Origin: Bacteroidota bacterium
Lineage (GTDB): Bacteria; Bacteroidota; Bacteroidia; 2-12-FULL-35-15
Assembly (NCBI GenBank): GCA_040388745.1
Contig: JAZKBF010000010.1
Coordinates: 56,339-120,338 of the forward strand
Length of the DNA: 64,000 nucleotides
Direction of reading: 5' to 3'
The translations under genes and the position numbers were made by a program. Below are positions 1,821 through 51,496 of the stretch, one piece after another. Each line of letters starts with the position of its first letter. Position 1 is the first letter of the stretch. The notes under the pieces are model-generated. The model was not told the origin of the DNA and did not search any database. It saw nothing but the letters and a program-made list of their open reading frames with translations.

Positions 1821-4800
1821 TTAATACTCTTCTTTTAATTTCGTATGTAGTAAAGGATAACTTTTGTTAAGTGTGTTTTTAATAAAAACAAACTTTTCAA
1901 GTGATGATTCATTCATTTCTTTATTTGAAGCATTTTTTTCAATAAAACTCAAATGTGGAGAAAGGATCGATAAACCAACTACTGACATTGATGATTTTAG
2001 TTTATGTGATAAACTTTTTACATGAAAAGCATCTGAACTTTTAAAAGCAGCATCCAAGGCAGTAACATCTATAGGAACTTGATTTAAGAATAGTTCTATC
2101 ATCTCTTTTTCAAATTCTTTATTGCCATCAGAAAGTTCCTTTAAATAATTCAGATCAATTAGGTCTGAATCCTTATTTGAATCGCCTCTCTCAATAATTT
2201 TAAGGGGTACAGAGGAATCTAATTTTTTCTCAATTAAATTGGAGCTGATTTTGTTATAAAGGTCGTCCTGTGTAAAAGGTTTTCCTACATAATCATTCAT
2301 TCCAATTTCAATACATTTTTCTTTTTCACCAACCAGTGAATGTGCTGTCATTGCAACAATTGGGATTGTAAATTTCAACTCCTTTCTGATAGCTATAGTT
2401 GTCTGGTAGCCATCCATTTCAGGCATTTGCAAGTCCATTAGTACGAGATCAAATTTTCCCTGTTTTAATTTTTCCAGACCTATTTTTCCATTTTCAGCAA
2501 TTTCAAAATCAAAGCCAAATTTCGTAAGTATTTTTCCTGCTAATCGTTGGTTCAACACATTATCCTCGCATAATAATATTTTTACTGATCCAAGGTTTTT
2601 CTTTACAACAACAGCTTTTTGTAAAGGTTCTAAAACTGATTTGTCAACTTTTTCGTAACGAATTTCGAATGAAAATTCAGAACCTTTTCCAAGCTCACTG
2701 TTTAATTTTATTTCTCCTCCTAGCAATTCCACCAAATTTTTTGCAATACTTAAACCTAAGCCGGTTCCACCAAATTTTCTTGTAGTTTCAGTATTTGCCT
2801 GGGAGAATCTGTCAAAAATTAATTCCGTTTTGTCAGCAGGAATTCCTATTCCTGTGTCCTGAACAATAAATTTCAATTTATAACTGAAATCATCTTCTTC
2901 GGTTTTTTTTACGGATACAGTTATACTTCCCTCTTCAGTAAATTTAATCGCATTCCCAATCAAATTTACCATGATCTGATTTAATCTTACGCTATCCCCA
3001 ACAACGAAATCGGGAAGGGAGGCATCAAGGAAAAAATTGTATTCAAGATTTTTTTCTTTGGCTTTAACATTTAACAGATTATAAATATTTTTCAAGGAAT
3101 CCTTCAAACTAAATGGAGCACTTTCAATTGCAATTTTCCCGGATTCAATTTTTGAAAAATCAAGAATGTCATTTATTATTGAAAGCAAATTGCTTCCTGC
3201 AAGTTTAACTGAACTCACGCATTCCTTTTGATTTTCGTCCAAAGTGCTTTGGGCAAGTAATTCAGTAAATCCAATAATGGCATTCATTGGAGTGCGAATT
3301 TCATGGCTCATATTGGCAAGGAAACTGTTTTTGGCAATAACTGATTGCTCTGCCCTCTCTCTGGCATTTATGATTTCCGCTTTGGCTTTTTTACTTTCGC
3401 TGATATCTTTTGCTATTCCTAAATAACCAACGATTTCGTTTTTTGAACTCTTAAGTGTTGAAATAGATAATTCAACTGGAATTCTCAAGCCATCTTTACG
3501 AATATAGGTCCATTCATTCACATCACTTGAATTTCCCAAGCGTGATTTAATATGAAAAACATCAACCCCTGGTTCTACTTTTTGTTTTAATTCCTTTGTT
3601 AATACTTCAGCCCTTGCCAGAACTTCCATTTTATCATGGATTATTTCCGGGGTATTTCCGATCATTTCTTCCGCTTTATATCCAAGCATTTTTTCCGCAC
3701 CTTTATTAAAGGTCAGAATAATTCCATCCGGTTCAGAAGTAGAAATAATAGAATAATCTGTTCCATCAAGTATAACATTTTGAAATTCAGCTAATCTGCC
3801 AATTTCTTCCTCCATTTTTTTGCGGTCATCTATGTTATTAATTGAGGAGAGAATAAAAGAATTGCCATTAATTTCAATGATTTCCAGAGAGATAAGAACC
3901 CAAAATTTTCCCCCGTTTTTTTTTGTCATCATTCCTTCTTTGGACCTGGCGTTATTTTGGTTCTTCAATAAGGTTACTATTTTTTCACGTTCATCAGGGG
4001 GCACTATATTTAACTCAACGGATGTTTTTCCAATTACTTCTTCTTTTGTAAAACCAAAAACTTCAAGAAAAGTTTCATTCACATATTCTATTTTTCCTGT
4101 TTTTAAATTTGATATAGCCATAATTACAGGGTTTTTATCAAATACTTTAAAAAAGCGACTATTGCTTTCTTTTAATTCCTTTTCTAATGAAATCCGTTCT
4201 GTTATGTCAACCGCAGTTCCAATTACAAATTTACTACCATCATCTCGGTCTGAAATTACATTATTATACATCCAGGTTTTCAAGGTTCCATTTTTGTGAA
4301 TAATTTTCATTAATCCCTTAGAGGAGCCTGATTTTTCAATTTCATCTAAATAACCCTGAAGCAAATTTTTTGCTTCAATTGGTACAAGGTCAAATAAATT
4401 TTTCTGTAATATTTCTTCAACAGAATACCCTATTGAAGAGGCTCCGGCACGATTGATGGAAAAGAAATTACCTTTTAGATCATGCGTACACATCAATCCT
4501 TGTGAATTTTCGAAAAAAACTCTGTGCTTTTTTTCACTTGATAATAGGGCCTGTTCGCCTTTTATTCTATCTGAATCATTCCTACCAATTGCAAAAAGTT
4601 CTCCTGATACTTCATCAGGATTAGCAACCCAGCTTATTGTCAGGTAATCGCCATTTTTTGTTATAAACCGATTTTCGAAGCCTATCGTTTTTTCTCCTGT
4701 TCCCAATTTTTCAATTTCATTTACAGTGTCGCTGATATCATCAGGATGAATGAAATCAAAAAACGGTTTTGTAAGCAGCTCTTCTGTTGTCCAACCTAAA

Positions 4801-5402
4801 GTTAATGTAAATGCAGGATTAATTTTTTTGAAATATCCATCAGTACCAGCTACACATATCAGATCAATTGAAAGGTTGAACAGTTTTTCTAATTTATCCT
4901 TTTCCGCATTTTTTTTTCTTGACACAATTTGTGAAACTACTTCATTTGCTAAAAGAGTTAAAGCTTGTTGCTGATCAGGATTTAATTTTTTCGCTTTTTT
5001 ATCTATAACACATAGAGTGCCTAACGCGAAACCATTTGGATCAATTAAAGGATGACTTGCGTAAAATTTAACATTTTGCTGGTTTCTAATAAGTGGATTG
5101 CTCAAAAAGCGTTCATCTTTTGTTGCATCTTCAACTTCGAAAATGGAGTCACCCATAATTGAATATTGGCAAAAAGAAATCTCCCTGGGAGTTTGATTGG
5201 CATCTATTCCAACTTTAGATTTAAACCATTGCCTGTCCTTATCAATTAAACTAATTAAGGCAATTGGAGCTTCACATATTATGGATGCCAATTTTGTAAG
5301 GCGATCAAATTCCTCTTCTGGTAAAGTATCAAGAATATTGTACTGTTTTAATGCCGCTAAACGTTCAGCTTCATTTTCGGGTAAAGGCCCATTATTATTC
5401 AT
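1821..5402 (-). CDS. Cytoplasmic hybrid histidine kinase GAF-PASx4-HisKA-HATPase-REC-Hpt
   Basis: GAF start (EAERLAALKQYNIL), four PAS-like repeats, H-box FLANMSHEIRTPMN, N/G boxes (NLIGNAIKFT, DTGIGI, GGTGLGL), REC (LMDLQMPEMDG), Hpt (SHKLKSS). No TM helices. Confidence 0.93.
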   Translation of the reverse strand: MNNNGPLPENEAERLAALKQYNILDTLPEEEFDRLTKLASIICEAPIALISLIDKDRQWFKSKVGIDANQTPREISFCQYSIMGDSIFEVEDATKDERFLSNPLIRNQQNVKFYASHPLIDPNGFALGTLCVIDKKAKKLNPDQQQALTLLANEVVSQIVSRKKNAEKDKLEKLFNLSIDLICVAGTDGYFKKINPAFTLTLGWTTEELLTKPFFDFIHPDDISDTVNEIEKLGTGEKTIGFENRFITKNGDYLTISWVANPDEVSGELFAIGRNDSDRIKGEQALLSSEKKHRVFFENSQGLMCTHDLKGNFFSINRAGASSIGYSVEEILQKNLFDLVPIEAKNLLQGYLDEIEKSGSSKGLMKIIHKNGTLKTWMYNNVISDRDDGSKFVIGTAVDITERISLEKELKESNSRFFKVFDKNPVIMAISNLKTGKIEYVNETFLEVFGFTKEEVIGKTSVELNIVPPDEREKIVTLLKNQNNARSKEGMMTKKNGGKFWVLISLEIIEINGNSFILSSINNIDDRKKMEEEIGRLAEFQNVILDGTDYSIISTSEPDGIILTFNKGAEKMLGYKAEEMIGNTPEIIHDKMEVLARAEVLTKELKQKVEPGVDVFHIKSRLGNSSDVNEWTYIRKDGLRIPVELSISTLKSSKNEIVGYLGIAKDISESKKAKAEIINARERAEQSVIAKNSFLANMSHEIRTPMNAIIGFTELLAQSTLDENQKECVSSVKLAGSNLLSIINDILDFSKIESGKIAIESAPFSLKDSLKNIYNLLNVKAKEKNLEYNFFLDASLPDFVVGDSVRLNQIMVNLIGNAIKFTEEGSITVSVKKTEEDDFSYKLKFIVQDTGIGIPADKTELIFDRFSQANTETTRKFGGTGLGLSIAKNLVELLGGEIKLNSELGKGSEFSFEIRYEKVDKSVLEPLQKAVVVKKNLGSVKILLCEDNVLNQRLAGKILTKFGFDFEIAENGKIGLEKLKQGKFDLVLMDLQMPEMDGYQTTIAIRKELKFTIPIVAMTAHSLVGEKEKCIEIGMNDYVGKPFTQDDLYNKISSNLIEKKLDSSVPLKIIERGDSNKDSDLIDLNYLKELSDGNKEFEKEMIELFLNQVPIDVTALDAAFKSSDAFHVKSLSHKLKSSMSVVGLSILSPHLSFIEKNASNKEMNESSLEKFVFIKNTLNKSYPLLHTKLKEEY

Positions 5403-34348: not shown

Positions 34349-35680
34349 TTATCGGATCAATGAAATATTTCCTTTTTTATTTACTTCTTCCCCGGTAAGA
34401 TCTTTTGCTTTGATATAATATACAAATACCGCTGGGTCCAGAGGTTTACCTTTATAAGTTCCATCCCATCCTTCAGCAATATTTTCGGTTTCAAATACTT
34501 TTTCTCCCCAACGATTAAAAATGGCAAAATAAAAAGAGGTTATACATTTTTCCCATCCTTGTAAAATAAACAGATCGCTGCGTCCGTCATTATTAGGTGA
34601 AAAGGCATTTGGAGTTGTAAGCTCGCTACATACATAGGGTGGAGGTTCACCGGCATTTAATGTCCAGGGAGCATAAGTATTAATACCTGTTACATTAACT
34701 GTATTATTAGTGACGTTGCAAGTCCCAAAAGCAGGATTTTGCCATTGTATTCCGCTCCACATCCATCCTTTCAAACTATCTTCAACAATATCATTCGTAC
34801 TACCTCCCGTAAGATCCCACTCATCATCACGGTAAGTGAACGTTAGATCAGCAGTAGGATTGGAGGAATAATTTGTAGCATCAACTACCCAGAAACGATC
34901 AGCACACGTAACATCGCTTTCGTCTCCACTAAATGCATTCAAATTGGTAACTCCGCTTGGTAAAGGGCGGTTATTGGGGATGGAAGTAACAGATGTTGGA
35001 TAAGTTGCTACAGAAATATTTCCAATAGTGCTTTGTGCTCCGGCAGAAGTAACATCATAAAGAAAAGGAATATAAGTACCGGAAATGGTTCCAAAAGGAT
35101 ATGTATAATTGCTTGAAGTATTTCCCAGATTCCATTGAATTCTCCCGTAACCGGGGCCGGGATCTGTTTCGGAAATAATATAGCCACTTGTACGGGTGAT
35201 AGCAGTGGAAGCGGGATTAGTAACAATAACTGTTTTACTATTTAGATCAAAAGTATTGGAATTTAATGAAAGCACTCCGGTATTTCCTGCAACAATAGTA
35301 TTGATGTCCAGCGTTTTTGTACCTACTCCCTGCAAGTCAAGATTATTGAATGTTGTTGTTTGAGTCCCTTGAATAGTTTGAGTTGCACCCGATAAAATAA
35401 CGGTTCCTGTTGTTGGGTCGAGACAACCCAGCGGTTCACTGTTCGTCCAGTCGCCAGTCAAATAAATATCACCTTGGTTATGAATAAATCCCTGAACGGT
35501 ATTAGACACGTGCCCATCCACAAATAAAATAGTGTTTGGGTAAACAGTAATATCAGTACCTCCGTTGTAAAAATTGGTTTGAGAAAAAGAGAAAAAAGAA
35601 GCAAAAAGACTAAAGCTCATTATAAAGAAAATGAGAAGTAGAGGAGATAAACGATATGAAATAGAAGATTTTTTTTTCAT
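34349..35680 (-). CDS. T9SS type B cargo (gliding-motility-associated CTD) protein
   Basis: Signal peptide; CTD PNAFSPNNDG...IFNRWGEKVF...WDGTYKG...KGNISLIR. Confidence 0.88.
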   Translation of the reverse strand: MKKKSSISYRLSPLLLIFFIMSFSLFASFFSFSQTNFYNGGTDITVYPNTILFVDGHVSNTVQGFIHNQGDIYLTGDWTNSEPLGCLDPTTGTVILSGATQTIQGTQTTTFNNLDLQGVGTKTLDINTIVAGNTGVLSLNSNTFDLNSKTVIVTNPASTAITRTSGYIISETDPGPGYGRIQWNLGNTSSNYTYPFGTISGTYIPFLYDVTSAGAQSTIGNISVATYPTSVTSIPNNRPLPSGVTNLNAFSGDESDVTCADRFWVVDATNYSSNPTADLTFTYRDDEWDLTGGSTNDIVEDSLKGWMWSGIQWQNPAFGTCNVTNNTVNVTGINTYAPWTLNAGEPPPYVCSELTTPNAFSPNNDGRSDLFILQGWEKCITSFYFAIFNRWGEKVFETENIAEGWDGTYKGKPLDPAVFVYYIKAKDLTGEEVNKKGNISLIR

Positions 35681-35790
35681 GCTCTTAAAAAAGATATATA
35701 AAGATAACTTAATTCTTTTTATTTTTCTGATTTAGTTCGAAGATTTTTTTACCATTCACCGGACTGCTGGTATTTTCGCTTAGTCAGGTA

Positions 35791-37872
35791 TTACGGAGTT
35801 AAAGTTATAATTTTTGTGCTTGCTGTACTTGTACCGCAAGTATTTTCAGCGGTAACACTAATTATGCCTCCATAAGTAACGGCAGATAATTCTACATGTC
35901 CACCGGCACCTGCGGATGAAGGTCCGCTATTGCCATTACCACCGCCTCCACCACCACCATAATTAGTGGGTGCTGTTGCTGCAATATTTGTGGGGTATGT
36001 GTTAAAACAAGACCCTCTGCCACCGTTTCCGGCATTACCGCCACCACCGGCACCACCAAGGCCATAATTTGTTGGTCCATCCCAACCTCCAATAGGATAG
36101 AATATTGGAGGCGGCCCTCCGTTCGAACCATTACCTGTGGAACCAGCGGCACCACCACCACCACCACCTAAATAGGTATATTGTGAGTCCCCCCCATTTC
36201 CCCCCGTTCTATTAGTTGATCCACCAGAGCCGATTCCTCCTGCTCCACCAAACCCGTTTCCACCACTTTGAAATCCGCCACCACCGCCAGTGGCTGAAAT
36301 CAGGGCATCTACACTTGATGTGCCTCCTGCTACTCCCCCCCAACCGGTTAGTCCACCATCTCCAACAGTAATTGCTAAGGAAGCTCCAGAAAGGCCTGAA
36401 AACGTACCGCTCGAATAACCGCCACCACCGCCACCACCATATCCATTATTACCACCACCGCCACCACCACCAATAACAGTAATAGTTGCCGCGGTTATGC
36501 AATTACATGTATATGAACCTGATGTAGTAAATATAAGTGCAGGTGCGGATGCGAAGCTAACAGTGATAGATGTTGTTCCTTGGCCCGCAGTGATAGTTGC
36601 GCATGGAGGAACTGTCCATGTATACGTTGTTGCACCAGCTACCGGAGAAATAGAGTAAACAATACCTGTTGAACCGGAAGTAACCGGTGAAAGGCCGGTA
36701 ATGGCTCCGGGAGCAGCCGGACCGCCAACAGAAGATACAACAGCCAGTGAGCTTGATGTGCTTGTGCCACAGGTGTTTCCCGCGGTTACGTCAATATTGC
36801 CTGAAGTGCTACCAAACGTAACAGTAATGGAAGTTGTTCCTTGTCCGGCTGTAATAGTAGATCCAGAAGGAACAGTCCAGGAATATGATGTAGCACCGGT
36901 TACCGCAGAAATAATATATACATTTCCGGCACTTCCATTGCAAAATGTTGCACTTCCCGTAATGATACCTGGTTGTGCCGGAATTTGGCAGCCTCCGCAC
37001 GACATACTCACCCATACACTTCCTAAACCATCCCACCATTCGTAGCAATTGGTTGTTATATTAAAGATCAATAAAGATTGTGCTGGTGAAATAATTGCAT
37101 TGCGTTGCATTGTGGTGATGCGTGGAACAAGAAGTCCCATAGTTGTGCTTGTAACTTCCAATGCTGCGGAAGCAGCAGGTGTTGTTCCCGTGTTGATGCC
37201 AACATTTGTTCCATTATCATAAATGATTGAATTGCAAAGTTCAGTTGTGCTTGTAAATTTTGTTACATAATTTGTAGTTGAACCACTGCAAATTGTGCCA
37301 GGGCCAGTAGAACCCACTGATCCTGTGCTTCCTGTCAAACCGATGGAACCGGTTGTCCCCGAATTCCCTGTACTACCAGTAAAGCCTATAGAGCCTGTTG
37401 ATCCCGTTAATCCATTTATTCCAGTTATTCCAGTGCCTGTAGCCCCAACATTCCCGGTAGCGCCCGTTGATCCTGTGTTGCCATTACTTCCCGTTGAACC
37501 GGTACTCCCTGATCCTCCTAAACCATTGTTGCATAATGATTTCCAGTTTGTGGTTGTTGCATTCCAATAAAAAAAACACGAGGAATCGGTATCAAATACT
37601 AATAAACTATTTGCAGGTGAAGGGATGGATAGCCGTTGAACAGCTTTCATACGAGGAACCAGAACTCCTTTGTTATTAGTAGGGCTTGCATCAATATCCA
37701 GTAAAGCGGATGGGGCAGGAGTTAATGTTCCAACGCCAACATTATTGTTTTGAGCTAAACAATTTGTCTTGGTTAATAAATTAACTAAGAATAGAAGCAC
37801 AATAATTACCTGCCCGAATGAATGCATTTGGTTTGGAAGAACAAATCGTAAACTTCTTCTTAGAATTTTCAT
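35791..37872 (-). CDS. Secreted fibre-like protein: NVGxGT module x2, collagen-like segment, PKD-like domains, Gly-rich domain
   Basis: 693 aa. SALLDI...KGVLVPRM module twice, about 22 Gly-X-Y triplets, two PxxPGxITG...TTSITV repeats, poly-Gly domain. Confidence 0.8.
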
Positions 37873-38249
37873 ATTTTAATTTTATTTAAAAAAAATATTT
37901 TTGTACTTAAAAACGGTAAAAGTAATTTAATAAATTCAAAGGTAGAGCTTGTATAAATATTAAGGGGAAATATTTTATAGCCAACGAAAAGTCTTCGGCT
38001 AAGCTTAGATGGACCATGTGCAGTGTCATATTGAGCAAGTCCAATATGTGCGAAGGCTTTGAAGATTGATATTTTTATTCAGTTAAATAAAATAAAAACA
38101 AGTTCAATTTTTTTTGATTTAATTAGAGATTATTTGGGAGAGAAGCGAAGGCTTATATTCGTATACCCAAGGAACAGCTAATTTGCAGCCTTGCAATTTT
38201 ACAAGAGTCGGAATTGAGGATAGTTTATAAACTTAAAAATTATTTTCAC

Positions 38250-40331
38250 TTATAAATCAGCATTTTGGTGATACACTACTCCTGAAATATTAAATGCAGT
38301 ACCTGTTGGATTAACAAACCATCCGGATACGGAAAATCCAATAAAATAATTTGATCCGTTAGGGTTAAGCCTGATTACTACAAAGCCATCGGTGCTAAGG
38401 TATTGAGAACTGATAACTCCCGCTGAGTGGTCAACGTTTTGATTGCTGATAATTGTTCCAGTACCGCCATATGCATAACCTACTGCTTCAGAATTAATTG
38501 CTTTTGCTGTTCCATAATTATATCCTTCCACTAAAATACGATACATGATGCTTGCGCAGGTAATATTGGTTTTTATATGTATCATTACATTTGTATTATC
38601 TGTAGTGTTCCAGGTAAGGAAATCCCGCTTAACCTTTCCGCTTTGCGTTGCCAGATCACCATTAACCTGTAATTTTGATAACGGGGCTGTAGCTCCAATA
38701 CCCACATTTCCATTGTCCAAAACGGTCATTCTCACCTGTGGACCTGTAGCATAACTGTTTGTTGTTGCAAAGTGCATGGTAGTTCCTGGAGAGTTATGCT
38801 GATAAACATAAATGCCAGCCTGAGCGTTATCCACCCCTGCCTGGCTGAACGTTAGTCCACTTGACATCCCTGACGTTGCCATTCTAATGTTAATTGCTCC
38901 TTTGGCACTTGTCCCCATATTAGGGTAACTGTAATTTCCTTCCTGTGCAACTGTTAGTGGAGCCCCCGGGCTACTTGAAGCGATACCCACATTTCCATTA
39001 TCTAAAATAACCATGCGCTCATTGGTAGTAGAACCAGCCGTATATGTGGTAAGCCCGGTATGGAATGCCAGTTTAGCGGTTCCGGCAGGAGCTATTGCAT
39101 AAATCCTGGAACTATTATCCACTCCTAAATTTGCAAGGGTCATAAATTGGCTCTCCGGGCCTCCTTCACCAATCTTTATCGACATAGTAGCAGTGCCGCC
39201 TCCGGAGTTTTGAAAATGTGCCATTACATCACCATTGTTATTGGCTTTTGATAGGTGAAGGAGGTTATCTGGTGCTGTTGTTCCTATGCCTACATAGCCG
39301 TTCTCCGAAATAGTCATTCTTACCTGGGCAGTGTCGCCTCCTTTTGCAATGGAATTTGTTAGAAACTGGAGGTAGGTATCCCAAGAGGTTCCACGATAAG
39401 CTCTTATTCTTGCAGAGCCAGCTGCGGCAAAGCCCCATTGCAGATCTTGGGCGCTGTTAGAATTAAGTGGTGTATTCGGCCCCCAAATTTTTATTGCAGT
39501 AGCAGCAGTCGTTTGTCCTTCTGCACCAGCTTTCACTTCAAGCTTAGCCCCAGGACTAGCTGTTCCAATACCAACATAACCGTCATTTCGGAGTGTGAAC
39601 AGGGTAGGCTCTGTGAGTAAGCCATATCGGAAGTCAAGGAAAGCAAAAGCCGATATATCACGTGCAATAATATTGAAAGGCCCTCCAGTATGGCCATATG
39701 GTTGTATAGCTAGCCTGGCTTTTTCTCCTAAGGTGTTTGGTGCAGCTAACTGAGTCCCGATATGTACTTCTGCATTTCCATCAATATCTTCAAATCCGTT
39801 AAATCCTGTGCTGGCTATGGTTAATTTGGAGGCAGGATTCAATATTCCGATACCGACATTACCTACTGAATCAATAATAAACCGTTGGATATTGTTTGTG
39901 CGGAAGCGCAATGAAATATTATCTTTTGTTCCTAAAAAGTTAGGTCCTCCTGTGGTACCCGTATTGCCCGTAAGCATCCATGCGGTTCCGGGGGAACCGC
40001 CATTTAGTAATTGAACCCAAACAGGTGAACCGGAAGTCCCCGAATTATAGTAGTAACCAACAACCGGCAAACCACCGCTGCCGGTATGATATACAAGCAA
40101 ACTGGTTGCAGGATTGGTAATGGTTGTTGCATCTGTTGACGAAACCAGGGCCATGCGCGGGATAAGCAGCCCTTTATTGTTACCTGGCGCTGCATCAATA
40201 TCCAGCAATGATGAGGAATTCGGTACTGCACCAGAAGTGTTTATCCCAATGTTTTGGGCTGTGCAGTTCGTTTTATGTACTAGCTGACTTGTTGTTAAAA
40301 ATAATAGTATGAGTATTCTGCTAAGTTTCAT
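38250..40331 (-). CDS. Secreted tail-fibre-like protein with VGIG repeats
   Basis: 693 aa. N-module SSLLDI...KGLLIPRM, five [NY]VGI[GA] repeats, distinct C-terminal tip domain (HIKTN...VEGYNYG). Confidence 0.8.
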   Translation of the reverse strand: MKLSRILILLFLTTSQLVHKTNCTAQNIGINTSGAVPNSSSLLDIDAAPGNNKGLLIPRMALVSSTDATTITNPATSLLVYHTGSGGLPVVGYYYNSGTSGSPVWVQLLNGGSPGTAWMLTGNTGTTGGPNFLGTKDNISLRFRTNNIQRFIIDSVGNVGIGILNPASKLTIASTGFNGFEDIDGNAEVHIGTQLAAPNTLGEKARLAIQPYGHTGGPFNIIARDISAFAFLDFRYGLLTEPTLFTLRNDGYVGIGTASPGAKLEVKAGAEGQTTAATAIKIWGPNTPLNSNSAQDLQWGFAAAGSARIRAYRGTSWDTYLQFLTNSIAKGGDTAQVRMTISENGYVGIGTTAPDNLLHLSKANNNGDVMAHFQNSGGGTATMSIKIGEGGPESQFMTLANLGVDNSSRIYAIAPAGTAKLAFHTGLTTYTAGSTTNERMVILDNGNVGIASSSPGAPLTVAQEGNYSYPNMGTSAKGAINIRMATSGMSSGLTFSQAGVDNAQAGIYVYQHNSPGTTMHFATTNSYATGPQVRMTVLDNGNVGIGATAPLSKLQVNGDLATQSGKVKRDFLTWNTTDNTNVMIHIKTNITCASIMYRILVEGYNYGTAKAINSEAVGYAYGGTGTIISNQNVDHSAGVISSQYLSTDGFVVIRLNPNGSNYFIGFSVSGWFVNPTGTAFNISGVVYHQNADL

Positions 40332-49518: not shown

Positions 49519-50379
49519 ATGATTAAAAAATTACTTTCAACTGTTTTATTAATTGCAAGCATAGGAGTGATGAACTCTTCGGCACAAGCATTGTGTACAT
49601 CAAATATCTCTTGTGTACCACCAGATTCTACTTTTGGCATCTGCCCTGATTCTTTGACAGGTTTGCCTTTAGGTACTATAAGTCAAGCGTATACTGTTAC
49701 TATGAGTATTAAAATTCCAGCTTCTACAGTTGTTGCAGGTGTAACTTACAACTTGACTCATTTAGCTTTAACTGAGGTTAAAGTTGATACGTCTACTTCA
49801 GGAACAGCTGTTTGGGTTGATCTTTCTGCTATAGGCTTAACCTATTTAGGTAGTGGAGCAAATGTTCCTTCAGGATGTACAAATTGTGCAATTGGTGGTG
49901 GTTATACAATGACTAAATTTGGTTATTGGAATGCTCCAGGTCAATCTTGCGTAATAGTAAGTGGTACTCCAACTAAGACAGGAACTTTTCCAATTAAAAT
50001 TATTTCACAAGCCCGTGCTGTATTTTTTGGAGCAGGAACTTGGGCTGCAGCACCAGAGAACAATGATTACCGTTTAGTTGTTGCAGCACCATCAAGTGTT
50101 GGATCAATTGATCAGGTTAAGTTTGAAGTAAGTCAAAATACTCCAAATCCATTTAGCGATAAATCAGAAATTCGTTTTTCATCAGTAAACAGTTCTGAAG
50201 TTGAATTTAAGGTTTATAATTTACTTGGTTCAGTTGTTTACAGCAGCAATTTCAAATCTGTAAAAGGTATGAACACTATTAGTATTGATGCTAATACTTT
50301 ATCACCAGGTGTTTACATGTATTCAGTTAAAAATGGTGCAAGTACAATCACTAAAAGAATGGTTGTTTCAAACAAATAA
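49519..50379 (+). CDS. T9SS type A cargo protein, paralogue 1
   Basis: Signal peptide, Cys-rich N-domain, CTD QNTPNPF...GVYMYSV...TKRMVV. Confidence 0.85.
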   Translation: MIKKLLSTVLLIASIGVMNSSAQALCTSNISCVPPDSTFGICPDSLTGLPLGTISQAYTVTMSIKIPASTVVAGVTYNLTHLALTEVKVDTSTSGTAVWVDLSAIGLTYLGSGANVPSGCTNCAIGGGYTMTKFGYWNAPGQSCVIVSGTPTKTGTFPIKIISQARAVFFGAGTWAAAPENNDYRLVVAAPSSVGSIDQVKFEVSQNTPNPFSDKSEIRFSSVNSSEVEFKVYNLLGSVVYSSNFKSVKGMNTISIDANTLSPGVYMYSVKNGASTITKRMVVSNK

Positions 50380-50638: not shown

Positions 50639-51496
50639 ATGATCAAAAAAATACTTTCAGTCGTTCTATTAATTACTAGTGTAGGGGTTATGAATTCTTC
50701 TGCTCAAGCAGTATGTACTCCAAACATAACCTGCGTCCATACCGATTCTACTTTTGGTATTTGCCCGGATTCTATGACCGGTATACCTTCAGGTACTATA
50801 AATCAAGCTTATACTGTTACCATGAGTATTAAATTGCCAGCTACATCTTTAGTTCTGGGACAAACAGTTACTCTTAGTCATTTAGCCTTAACGGAAGTTT
50901 TAGTAGATACTTCTACTTCAGGTACAGCGGTATGGGTTGATATATCAGCAATAGGATTAACTTATTTAGGTAATGGAGCAAATACTCCTTCGGGAGGTGT
51001 TACTGGAATTGGAAGTTATACAATGACTAAATTTTGTTATTGGGATGCTCCGGGACAATCGTGTGTAATAGTAAGTGGAACTCCAACAAAAGCGGGAGAT
51101 TTTCCAGTAAAGATCAAATCAAAAGGACGTGGTGTTGCTTTTGGACTGGGAACATGGGCAAATGCGGCAGAAAACAATAATTACAAATTGCATGTAGTAG
51201 ATCCGGCTGCAGGAATTGAATCTCTTAATTTATCTAAGTTTGATGTGGGTCAAAATACACCCAATCCTTTTAGTACTAAATCAGAAATTGGTTTTACATC
51301 TGTAACTAATTCTGATGTTGAGTTTAACGTTTATGATATGCTTGGCGCTGTGGTATATTCCCGTAATTTCAAATCAGTAAAAGGTATTAACACTATTTCT
51401 CTTGATGCAAATTCATTTGCTCCCGGGGTTTATATGTATTCTGTTAAAAATGGTGCTATTACCACAACAAAAAGAATGGTTGTTTCCAATAAATAA
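50639..51496 (+). CDS. T9SS type A cargo protein, paralogue 2
   Basis: End-to-end homologous to 49519-50379; stop codon overlaps the rnz start (TAATG). Confidence 0.85.
   Translation: MIKKILSVVLLITSVGVMNSSAQAVCTPNITCVHTDSTFGICPDSMTGIPSGTINQAYTVTMSIKLPATSLVLGQTVTLSHLALTEVLVDTSTSGTAVWVDISAIGLTYLGNGANTPSGGVTGIGSYTMTKFCYWDAPGQSCVIVSGTPTKAGDFPVKIKSKGRGVAFGLGTWANAAENNNYKLHVVDPAAGIESLNLSKFDVGQNTPNPFSTKSEIGFTSVTNSDVEFNVYDMLGAVVYSRNFKSVKGINTISLDANSFAPGVYMYSVKNGAITTTKRMVVSNK

What the first reader, a model, noticed from the sequence alone, without database searches (positions are those of the whole stretch)
34349..40331. Candidate surface fibre system: two CTD-less phage-fibre-like proteins upstream of a T9SS type B cargo
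Seen: three co-oriented genes. Both fibre genes have Sec signals and begin the mature chain with the same ~65 aa module (N[IV]G[IV].T..P..S.LLDIDA.P.NNKG.L.PRM......I..PA.SLLV........YY.....W..L), then carry unrelated bodies. Neither has a T9SS CTD. The third gene has a type B CTD, and no porP/sprF partner is adjacent. Established: VGIG repeats, collagen segments and poly-Gly domains occur in trimeric phage fibres and adhesins; type B CTDs route SprB-like surface proteins. Inference: the shared module is an assembly or docking tag that lets interchangeable fibres be exported with, or anchored on, the type B cargo, giving a modular adhesin or receptor-binding apparatus. I know of no characterisation of it.
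Basis: partly seen in the sequence, partly recalled or inferred. Interest (0 to 1): 0.72.

Follow-up and report, generated by a model that had tools for sequence, protein, structure and literature searches.

The report
Swappable surface fibres with T9SS partner
Two phage-tail-fibre-like proteins that share an N-terminal module lie just upstream of a gene for a secreted partner protein, and the same pairing recurs across many Bacteroidota, which suggests an undescribed way of exporting or mounting interchangeable adhesive fibres on the cell surface.

Summary
Three co-oriented minus-strand genes are present: fibre A (38250-40331), fibre B (35791-37872) and C (34349-35680). A and B share a roughly 75-85 aa module right after the signal peptide (44% identity, E=5e-18) and then diverge. 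Neither has a T9SS C-terminal domain (CTD). C has a type B CTD.

The fibres are not uncharacterised. A's shaft matches solved Bdellovibrio MAT fibres and phage tail-fibre families. The module corresponds to Pfam PF26696 (PTL_trimer).

The new result concerns C's passenger domain, which I call Cpass. It has no Pfam family and no fold match.
- 32 of 41 Cpass genes with enough upstream DNA have a module-bearing fibre gene directly upstream on the same strand.
- Those loci hold 46 module ORFs upstream of Cpass and 1 downstream.
- 14 of 15 Cpass sequence clusters show the pairing.
- Going the other way, 8 of 22 fibre loci carry Cpass.

Cpass carries a type A or a type B CTD, so the passenger is the constant partner, not the CTD type. 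Cpass similarity tracks the module, not the fibre tips.

Best reading: trimeric fibres with swappable tips whose T9SS export or anchoring is supplied in trans by Cpass. Physical docking is untested. Interest is moderately high.

The parts
38250..40331 (-). Gene A: 693-aa secreted fibre protein with no T9SS CTD
   Evidence: ORF. Orthologues at 83% and 67% identity sit in syntenic loci and carry PF26696 PTL_trimer. No CTD hit.
40257..40331 (-). A signal peptide (aa 1-25, predicted cleavage ...NCTA|QN)
   Evidence: Direct reading of the translation. The c-region is shared with B. No predictor was run.
39996..40256 (-). A N-module (aa 26-112), equivalent to PF26696-type PTL_trimer
   Evidence: HMM E about 1e-31. 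The assignment to PF26696 is inferred from which one search hits carry that family versus which query region they align to.
38625..39995 (-). A shaft (aa 113-569): about 95-aa repeats with G[NY]VGI[GA] at aa 157, 251, 345, 446 and 541. Homologous to MAT fibre and phage tail-fibre shafts.
   Evidence: PDB phmmer hits 8ond, 8oml, 8ojn and 8on4 at E 9e-8 to 4e-4. PHROG 9942 and 18345 at E 5e-22 and 2e-19 over aa 140-466. Motif positions.
38253..38624 (-). A C-terminal tip (aa 570-693): beta-rich, no family assignment
   Evidence: Strands are predicted but confidence is low. The same tip recurs on a different protein, P0066 (46% identity).
37873..38249 (-). A-B intergenic spacer (377 bp)
   Evidence: It contains TACCTTTG, which matches the Bacteroidota -7 consensus TAnnTTTG (consensus recalled from my own knowledge). 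No terminator-like site on the minus strand. Whether A and B are co-transcribed is unresolved.
35791..37872 (-). Gene B: 693-aa secreted fibre protein with no T9SS CTD. It occupies a variable slot.
   Evidence: The slot is empty in L001 and holds an S74-type fibre with the same N-terminus in L002.
37528..37752 (-). B N-module copy 1 (aa 41-115), directly after the signal peptide (aa 1-40, ...NCLA|QN)
   Evidence: domain E 3.7e-21.
37303..37521 (-). B collagen-like Gly-X-Y segment (aa 118-190)
   Evidence: NCBIfam SclA partial hit. PDB collagen hits down to E 3e-27. PHROG tail-fibre hit over aa 119-231.
37006..37209 (-). B N-module copy 2 (aa 222-289, internal)
   Evidence: E=4e-5; domain E 1.4e-20.
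36526..36981 (-). B PKD_6 domains, three copies (about aa 298-449)
   Evidence: Pfam PF19408, E 3.4e-45, 3 stretches.
35896..36525 (-). B glycine-rich tip domain (aa 450-659)
   Evidence: Pfam PF21722 Gly_rich_2, E 4.9e-11.
35681..35790 (-). B-C intergenic spacer (110 bp)
   Evidence: No terminator-like site on the minus strand.
34349..35680 (-). Gene C: 443-aa T9SS cargo and the conserved partner of the fibres
34631..35581 (-). Cpass passenger domain (aa 34-350): predicted beta-solenoid (about aa 36-195) plus beta-sandwich (about aa 206-342). No Pfam family.
   Evidence: AF2 pLDDT 88.8. No real fold match in the PDB or BFVD. The family has 2,202 representative clusters.
34352..34618 (-). Type B T9SS C-terminal domain (aa 355-443)
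   Evidence: CHU_C E 2.3e-17 and TIGR04131 E 3.3e-14, both above their curated cut-offs.

Best explanation
This is a small cassette for a two-part cell-surface fibre. A and B are Sec-exported, phage-tail-fibre-like (MAT-like) proteins that most likely form trimers. Each begins its mature chain with a conserved module (Pfam PTL_trimer type) and ends in an unrelated tip that is exchanged by recombination.

C is a dedicated partner. Its conserved passenger (Cpass) is always fused to a T9SS C-terminal sorting domain, type B here and type A in most relatives. A T9SS signal must sit at a protein's C-terminus, but a fibre's C-terminus has to be the free distal binding tip. I therefore propose that the export and anchoring function is supplied in trans. 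Cpass would be secreted by the T9SS and retained at the surface, and it would bind the constant N-proximal end of the fibres. It would act either as their surface dock or as a carrier that takes assembled fibres through the translocon.

Shown here: the gene architecture, the homologies, the conserved polar gene pairing, the interchangeable CTD type, and the finding that Cpass similarity follows the module and not the tip.

Inferred: trimerisation, surface location, physical Cpass-module contact and co-export.
For: 1. Fibre identity. A's shaft matches solved Bdellovibrio MAT fibres and phage tail-fibre PHROGs. MATs have the same plan: signal peptide, conserved N-domain, trimeric shaft and variable S74 or non-S74 tips. 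Their cell-surface receptor is unknown.

2. Linkage seen from the Cpass side.
- A passenger-only profile retrieved 48 genomic loci.
- 32 of 41 loci with at least 2.5 kb upstream have a module ORF within 600 bp upstream on the same strand. Gaps range from an overlap of 31 bp to a spacing of 339 bp, and many are small or overlapping.
- There are 46 module ORFs in 358 kb upstream versus 1 in 320 kb downstream.
- 14 of 15 Cpass clusters at 60% identity show the pairing.
- The flanks differ between groups: ppx and an MBL-fold gene, HflX, or ferrochelatase.

3. Linkage seen from the fibre side. In 70 metagenome loci retrieved with the module alone, 8 of 22 with at least 1.5 kb of flank on both sides carry Cpass next to the fibre run on the same strand.

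4. Cpass is a T9SS cargo whichever CTD it carries: type B in groups G1 and G2, type A in G3. Among 147 representatives, 95 are type A and 21 type B. The 10 tested representatives left undetected by my HMM also have a C-terminal Por_Secre_tail match, though five of those matches score below the Pfam cut-off of 27 bits.

5. One Cpass serves 1-4 fibres with different tips. For locus pairs whose Cpass is at least 60% identical, the adjacent fibre's module has a median identity of 54% and its last 150 aa a median of 20%.

6. The module is cellular, not viral. It has no hits in 50,697 phage genomes or in IMG/VR.

7. Some fibres carry their own type A CTD (L089), which ties the fibre family to T9SS export.

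8. The same pairing occurs in the cultured Mucilaginibacter arboris.
Against: - There is no direct evidence of contact, surface exposure or T9SS dependence.
- About two thirds of module-bearing fibre loci have no detectable adjacent Cpass. Bdellovibrio, which to my knowledge lacks a T9SS, displays MAT fibres. Export therefore need not require a T9SS partner.
- The module also occurs internally (B aa 222-289, G2 fibres), and Pfam calls the family a 'trimer' domain. That fits a folding or registration role as well as a docking role.
- No natural module-Cpass fusion was found among 147 representatives.
- To my knowledge, co-transport of a CTD-less protein through the T9SS has not been reported.
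- Loci within a Cpass group share synteny, so there are about 15 independent observations, not 41.
- Six G1 Cpass genes (L005, L011, L014, L015, L017, L026) have no adjacent fibre.
Confidence: 0.5

Rival explanations
1. The shared module is only a trimerisation or registration nucleus for the fibre. Cpass is an independent T9SS-secreted adhesin that is co-regulated with the fibres, with no physical docking or co-export.
For: - The Pfam family name is PTL_trimer.
- In B, two module copies flank the collagen-like segment, a segment type that needs a trimerisation domain.
- G2 fibres have the module internally, just before the tip.
- Most fibre loci lack Cpass.
- Cpass-like beta-solenoid repeats also occur in giant adhesin-like proteins of more than 3,000 aa.
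Against: - Simple co-regulation does not explain the strict polarity (46 upstream versus 1 downstream) or the overlapping reading frames.
- It does not explain retention of the pairing across 14 of 15 Cpass clusters and across both CTD types.
- It does not explain why Cpass similarity tracks the module while tips turn over.
Confidence: 0.3
2. Cpass is a fibre assembly factor or a tip-associated accessory. It would be analogous to the phage tail-fibre assembly and adhesin genes that lie immediately downstream of fibre genes (tfa, gp38).
For: - The gene order, fibre followed by a small accessory gene with tight coupling, mirrors phage fibre loci.
- Cpass has no enzymatic signature.
Against: - Nearly identical Cpass proteins follow fibres with unrelated tips: Gly_rich_2, a beta-sandwich, S74, or none of these.
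- One Cpass follows up to four different fibres.
- Cpass carries a T9SS secretion signal, so it leaves the periplasm.
Confidence: 0.1
3. The cluster is a remnant of a prophage, tailocin or contractile injection system, and the fibres are virion or particle parts.
For: The shaft of A and the collagen-like part of B hit phage tail-fibre PHROGs.
Against: - Both fibres have Sec signal peptides.
- The flanks are ppk1, ppx and an MBL-rhodanese gene, in conserved synteny.
- There are no other phage genes nearby.
- The module is absent from phage genomes and viral contigs.
- C has no PHROG hit.
Confidence: 0.03
4. The A/B/C adjacency is inherited synteny in one lineage and has no functional meaning.
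For: The closest relatives (L001, L002, L006-L010) share the whole ppk-ppx...MBL neighbourhood.
Against: The pairing recurs with different flanking genes, a different CTD type, only 33-37% Cpass identity, and in loci retrieved through the module alone.
Confidence: 0.02

Closest known systems
Bdellovibrio bacteriovorus MAT (mosaic adhesive trimer) fibres (Caulton et al. 2024, PMC10769870)
   Same: - Both have a signal peptide, a conserved N-terminal domain directly after it, a long trimeric beta-helical shaft with GNVGIG-type repeats, and mosaic tips that are either S74 or non-S74.
- A's shaft is sequence-homologous to solved MAT fragments.
- There are several paralogues per locus or genome, and tips are swapped.
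   Different: - The host is Bacteroidota, not Bdellovibrionota.
- Homology of the N-module to the MAT N-domain could not be tested here.
- B uses a collagen-like stalk with PKD_6 and Gly-rich domains rather than a beta-helix.
- A dedicated T9SS cargo partner (Cpass) is encoded next to the fibres. No such partner is described for MATs, whose surface receptor is stated to be unknown.
Phage tail fibres with a conserved N-terminal attachment domain and a downstream accessory gene
   Same: - The logic is the same: a constant proximal end, a variable distal receptor-binding tip and cassette exchange.
- The shaft hits tail-fibre PHROGs.
- An accessory gene lies immediately downstream.
   Different: - These proteins are Sec-exported cellular proteins.
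- The proximal module is absent from phage genomes.
- The downstream gene is a T9SS cargo, not a chaperone.
T9SS cargo: SprB-type (type B CTD with a PorP/SprF partner) and type A CTD cargo anchored through PorU/PorV
   Same: C meets the curated thresholds for a type B CTD. Cpass relatives carry type A or type B CTDs.
   Different: - No adjacent porP/sprF gene in the window, though one is present in L013.
- The passenger is a previously unannotated domain.
- The proposed role, a trans-acting export or anchor adaptor for CTD-less fibres, has no described precedent that I know of or found.
Trimeric autotransporter adhesins (YadA-like)
   Same: They are trimeric surface fibres with modular heads and stalks. 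The L002 middle-slot fibre even has YadA-head-like NTAIGYxAL repeats (by inspection).
   Different: In those adhesins the anchor and translocator is a C-terminal beta-barrel in cis (T5SS). Here the C-terminus is the free tip, and the putative anchor is a separate protein.
Bacterial collagen-like proteins (Scl1/SclA, BclA)
   Same: B has a Gly-X-Y triple-helix-type segment flanked by globular domains.
   Different: The NF038330 score of 24.5 is far below the 400-bit cut-off. There is no LPXTG motif. The envelope is Gram-negative.

Membership tests
MAT fibre family (Bdellovibrio) | N-terminal Sec signal peptide | tested here: met
   Read directly from the translations: n, h and c regions with ...NC[TL]A|QN. 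No predictor was run.
MAT fibre family (Bdellovibrio) | Conserved beta-rich N-terminal domain of about 130 aa directly after the signal peptide, homologous among members | not testable with these tools
   A conserved N-region exists (aa 26 to about 175 in A). No full-length Bdellovibrio MAT sequence could be obtained: the search with a Bd2133 fragment returned nothing, and the N-module profile has no PDB match.
MAT fibre family (Bdellovibrio) | Trimeric beta-helical shaft homologous to solved MAT structures | tested here: met
   Met for A: 8ond E 9e-8, 8oml 1.8e-5, 8ojn 2.8e-5, 8on4 3.8e-4. Not met for B, which has a collagen-like stalk instead. The oligomeric state itself was not tested.
MAT fibre family (Bdellovibrio) | Variable C-terminal tip, either S74 chaperone-protease or non-S74 | tested here: met
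   A and B have non-S74 tips. Paralogues and orthologues in related loci carry Peptidase_S74.
MAT fibre family (Bdellovibrio) | Display on the cell surface | not testable with these tools
   This needs experiments.
Pfam PF26696 PTL_trimer | Match to the family HMM | tested here: inconclusive
   The model is not in the local Pfam copy (no hit). A's 83%-identical orthologue and most one search hits carry the family in the precomputed annotation. B-type proteins have no precomputed hit, but they match an HMM built from PF26696-bearing proteins at E about 1e-17 to 1e-21.
T9SS type B CTD cargo (TIGR04131 / PF13585 CHU_C) | C-terminal domain scoring above the curated cut-off | tested here: met
   C: TIGR04131 52.8 bits (cut-off 35) and CHU_C 63.3 bits (cut-off 27) at aa 355-443. 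A and B have no hit.
T9SS type B CTD cargo (TIGR04131 / PF13585 CHU_C) | Cognate PorP/SprF-like gene adjacent (typical, not obligatory) | tested here: not met
   The neighbours are gene B and an MBL-rhodanese gene. My PorP HMM has no hit in the window. A PorP_SprF gene is present downstream of the P0140/L013 homologue.
Phage tail fibre (PHROG 9942 / 18345) | Sequence match and phage genomic context | tested here: not met
   The shaft matches. The context is chromosomal housekeeping genes, the proteins have signal peptides, and the N-module is absent from phage collections.
LPXTG collagen-like adhesin Scl1/SclA (NF038330) | Score above the curated cut-off | tested here: not met
   B scores 24.5 bits against a cut-off of 400. 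Only the Gly-X-Y region matches.

The most novel reading that the evidence does not exclude
Cpass is a trans-acting T9SS adaptor. CTD-less trimeric fibres would assemble in the periplasm, bind Cpass through their conserved N-proximal module, and be carried through the T9SS translocon and anchored by Cpass's CTD. This would be the first case of 'hitch-hiking' secretion through the T9SS. It would also identify the missing cell-surface anchor for MAT-like fibres, at least in Bacteroidota.
Probability: 0.25. Interest if true: 0.85.

Novelty: new variant of a known kind. Interest (0 to 1): 0.66.

Why it matters
MAT-like and phage-like trimeric fibres are a general way for bacteria to display interchangeable binding specificities. 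The Bdellovibrio study states that how they are held on the cell is unknown.

A conserved, unannotated partner domain with about 2,200 representative clusters, always fused to a T9SS sorting signal and almost always encoded behind fibre genes, is a concrete candidate for that anchor or exporter in Bacteroidota.

If it holds, three things follow:
- The T9SS substrate repertoire would extend to proteins that lack a CTD.
- It would explain how a C-terminal secretion signal is reconciled with a fibre whose C-terminus must stay free.
- It would define a modular system (constant base, swappable tips) relevant to adhesion, predation and phage-receptor mimicry in environmental Bacteroidota.

The pair also occurs in a cultured Mucilaginibacter, so the hypothesis can be tested directly.

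Tried and rejected
- The local Pfam and NCBIfam copies gave no family for A or for the Cpass passenger.
- Papers were searched for 'PTL_trimer', 'PF26696', PTL with tail fibre, and T9SS with fibre, adaptor or piggyback. None described this pairing or explained the Pfam name.
A consensus peptide was used instead.
- The AF2 monomer model of A was poor (mean pLDDT 60), so it was not used for fold search.
- Fold searches with the confident C model gave only CTD or Ig-like partial matches, with TM scores normalised to the query of at most about 0.24.
- I tried to fetch full-length Bdellovibrio MAT proteins by searching with a Bd2133 fragment reconstructed from the PDB alignment. It returned nothing, so homology between the N-module and the MAT N-domain remains untested. 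The MAT paper's supplements hold no sequences.
- No RNA runs contain the locus, only metagenome DNA runs from watershed and groundwater samples.
- The sigma-70 promoter and terminator scan was uninformative, at or below shuffle expectation and the wrong promoter type for Bacteroidota.
- Default hmmsearch filters dropped true Cpass matches because of composition bias, so --max was needed.
- A Cpass N-subdomain HMM found no extra partner genes in fibre loci that lack Cpass.
- No module-Cpass fusion protein was found.
- Prophage origin and chance synteny were considered and rejected (see rival explanations).

Full report
**What is there**

The region holds three minus-strand genes.
- A: 38250-40331, 693 aa.
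- B: 35791-37872, 693 aa.
- C: 34349-35680, 443 aa.

They lie between ppk1/ppx and an MBL-fold/rhodanese gene. DNA matching the locus comes from watershed and groundwater metagenomes. All close relatives are uncultured Bacteroidota MAGs.

**Check of the observation**

- A and B align only over the end of the signal peptide and the following module (46/105 identical, E=5e-18). B also has a second, internal copy at aa 223-271.
- Both have signal-peptide-like N-termini ending ...KTNC[TL]A|QN, so the module begins at the first residue of the mature protein (read).
- A continues with five G[NY]VGI[GA] motifs about 95 aa apart and a beta-rich tip.
- B continues with a collagen-like Gly-X-Y run, the second module copy, three PKD_6 domains and a Gly_rich_2 domain.
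- Neither has any T9SS CTD hit, even at E<=1.
- C exceeds the curated thresholds for CHU_C and TIGR04131 at aa 355-443.
- No porP/sprF gene is adjacent.

**What the fibres are**

- A has about 1,800 detectable relatives. Most carry Pfam PF26696, displayed as 'PTL_trimer', together with varied C-termini: Peptidase_S74, C1q, Gly_rich_2, collagen and others.
- I compared which hits carry PF26696 with which part of A they align to. This places that family on the shared N-module.
- A's shaft matches four solved fragments of Bdellovibrio MAT fibres (E 9e-8 to 4e-4). It also matches phage tail-fibre PHROGs over aa 140-466.
- The MAT paper describes the same plan: signal peptide, invariant N-domain of about 130 aa, trimeric shaft, and mosaic S74 or non-S74 tips. 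It states that the surface element bound by the N-domain is unknown.
- The N-module itself is not viral. It has no tblastn hit in 50,697 phage genomes. It has none in IMG/VR with the same query that found 70 metagenome loci. It has no PDB match.

**Modularity**

In syntenic loci of two relatives, A and C are conserved but the middle slot differs.
- It is empty in L001.
- In L002 it holds an 804-aa gene. Its first 116 aa are 78% identical to B, while the rest is unrelated: a collagen-like run, YadA-like repeats and an S74 chaperone.
- A itself is mosaic against its L002 orthologue. The ends are 80-98% identical and the centre only 10-38%.

**The key result: a conserved fibre-Cpass gene pair**

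C's family is well conserved over its whole passenger, which I call Cpass (aa 34-350). Cpass has no Pfam family.

Search starting from Cpass. A passenger-only profile retrieved 48 loci from species-representative genomes. I scanned them with an HMM of the N-module.
- 32 of 41 Cpass genes with at least 2.5 kb upstream have a module-bearing ORF within 600 bp upstream on the same strand. Gaps range from an overlap of 31 bp to a spacing of 339 bp.
- 34 of 41 have a module ORF somewhere upstream.
- As an internal control, these loci hold 46 module ORFs in 358 kb upstream of Cpass and 1 in 320 kb downstream, none on the opposite strand.
- 14 of 15 Cpass clusters at 60% identity show the pairing.

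The Cpass family falls into three groups.
- G1: about 440 aa with a type B CTD. The window belongs here.
- G2: about 770 aa with added PKD domains and a type B CTD.
- G3: about 530 aa with a type A CTD (Por_Secre_tail).

Each group sits among different housekeeping genes: MBL-rhodanese, HflX or ferrochelatase.

Family size and CTDs. Against 1.84 billion cluster representatives the family has 2,202 members at E<=1e-3.
- Of the top 147, 95 have a type A CTD and 21 a type B CTD.
- Ten of ten tested 'undetected' members also have a C-terminal Por_Secre_tail match, although five of these score below the Pfam cut-off of 27 bits.

Search starting from the fibre. Among loci retrieved through the module alone, 8 of 22 with flanks on both sides have Cpass next to the fibre run on the same strand (5 of 15 with at least 3 kb of flank).

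A cultured example. In Mucilaginibacter arboris, a PTL_trimer fibre is followed directly by a 940-aa Por_Secre_tail protein whose N-terminus matches the start of Cpass (E 2.6e-8).

**What Cpass looks like**

AF2 gives a confident model (pLDDT 88.8). It shows a beta-solenoid-like N-half, a beta-sandwich and the CTD. Foldseek finds no real match for the passenger in the PDB or BFVD. There is no PDB sequence match and no PHROG match.

**Which end of the fibre does Cpass go with?**

- Cpass proteins that are 71-88% identical to each other follow fibres with unrelated tips, and one Cpass follows up to four fibres.
- Over 39 non-redundant triplets, locus pairs with Cpass at least 60% identical have adjacent-fibre modules of median 54% identity, but C-terminal 150 aa of median 20%. 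In 73% of those pairs the tips are below 25% identity.
- The rank correlation of Cpass similarity is 0.38 with the module and 0.12 with the tip. This is descriptive only, because the pairs are not independent.
- In G1 loci, the N-terminal modules of both subtypes share a 'DIDA[AS]PxNNKG' insertion. Internal copies, G3 fibres and fibres without Cpass lack it. This fits a shared constraint, or it may reflect gene conversion.

**Mechanism proposed**

A T9SS signal must be C-terminal, while a fibre's C-terminus is its distal binding tip. Supplying the signal and anchor on a separate protein that binds the constant proximal end would resolve that conflict.

I therefore favour Cpass as the trans-acting T9SS export and/or anchoring partner of the fibres (confidence 0.5 for a functional partnership). 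Within that, docking on the module is less certain, and piggyback export is least certain (about 0.25).

Some fibres carry their own type A CTD (L089), so the fibre family is linked to T9SS export in any case.

**Caveats and rivals**

- The module also occurs internally (B copy 2, and G2 fibres), and Pfam labels the family a 'trimer' domain. It may be primarily a trimerisation or registration unit, with Cpass simply a co-regulated adhesin (confidence 0.3).
- Two thirds of fibre loci show no adjacent Cpass.
- Several G1 Cpass genes lack adjacent fibres.
- No module-Cpass fusion protein was found.
- Nothing here shows contact, surface exposure or T9SS dependence.
- A tip-chaperone role is unlikely, given the tip turnover and Cpass's own secretion signal.
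- Prophage origin and chance synteny are contradicted by the genomic context and by recurrence in unrelated contexts.
- Operon structure in the window is unresolved. No terminator-like sites lie in the spacers, but a TAnnTTTG-type motif sits upstream of B.

**Novelty**

The fibres are members or close analogues of a known kind: MAT-like, phage-like mosaic trimeric fibres. The module is already a Pfam family.

What I found no description of is the conserved pairing with an unannotated T9SS cargo domain. I rate this a new variant of a known kind, with interest of about 0.66.

Noticed in passing
window 49519-50379 and 50639-51496 (+): Two tandem paralogous proteins of about 285 aa, each with a type A T9SS CTD (Por_Secre_tail, E 2.6e-13 and 6.3e-11) and an N-terminal part with no Pfam family. 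They show that the organism uses the T9SS.
   Followed up: partly
L089 6021-8057: A module-bearing fibre that has both an S74 chaperone domain and its own type A CTD at the very C-terminus. In this locus Cpass lies upstream of the two fibres rather than downstream.
   Followed up: partly
P0140 locus / L013 6858-12414: Here the fibre gene (392 aa) is separated from Cpass by two Fib_succ_major (PF09603) genes, and a PorP_SprF gene follows Cpass directly. This is a fuller version of the cassette, with the type B partner present.
   Followed up: partly
L125 (GCA_050921655.1, labelled Janthinobacterium lividum): This contig is gene-for-gene syntenic with the Mucilaginibacter arboris locus L124 and has 38% GC. 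It is almost certainly a Sphingobacteriia contig that was mis-binned or mislabelled.
   Followed up: yes
L018 5766-9896: G2 fibres start with a shaft repeat (AQNVGIGTNSPQSKLHVAG) directly after the signal peptide. They carry the N-module internally, just before a C-terminal tip rich in HxH motifs that is reminiscent of phage fibre metal-binding tips. Pfam gives no hit.
   Followed up: partly
L004, L005, L015 downstream of Cpass: A conserved gene of 1119-1127 aa (weak DUF4175 hit) followed by a small HATPase_c_2 protein lies after Cpass in several G1 loci. In L004, two convergent fibre genes are inserted between Cpass and this pair.
   Followed up: no
window 38250-40331 versus L002 10001-12340: A is mosaic relative to its orthologue. 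The N-terminal roughly 360 alignment columns and the C-terminal roughly 180 are 80-98% identical, while the central part is only 10-38% identical with length differences. This indicates recombination within the shaft.
   Followed up: partly
(method): A 163-aa fragment of Bd2133 reconstructed from the PDB alignment found no protein at all in the 5.8-billion-sequence collection, which is unexpected for a sequenced model organism. Possible reasons are a reconstruction error or a limit of the word index.
   Followed up: no
(method): HMMER's default composition-bias filter silently dropped true Cpass matches at E 1e-26 to 1e-29 in L055 and L063. Scans of these Thr/Asn/Gly-rich proteins need --max.
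   Followed up: yes
window 1821-5402 (-): A large hybrid sensor kinase: several PAS domains, then HisKA, HATPase_c, Response_reg and a weak Hpt hit. It is unrelated to the finding.
   Followed up: no
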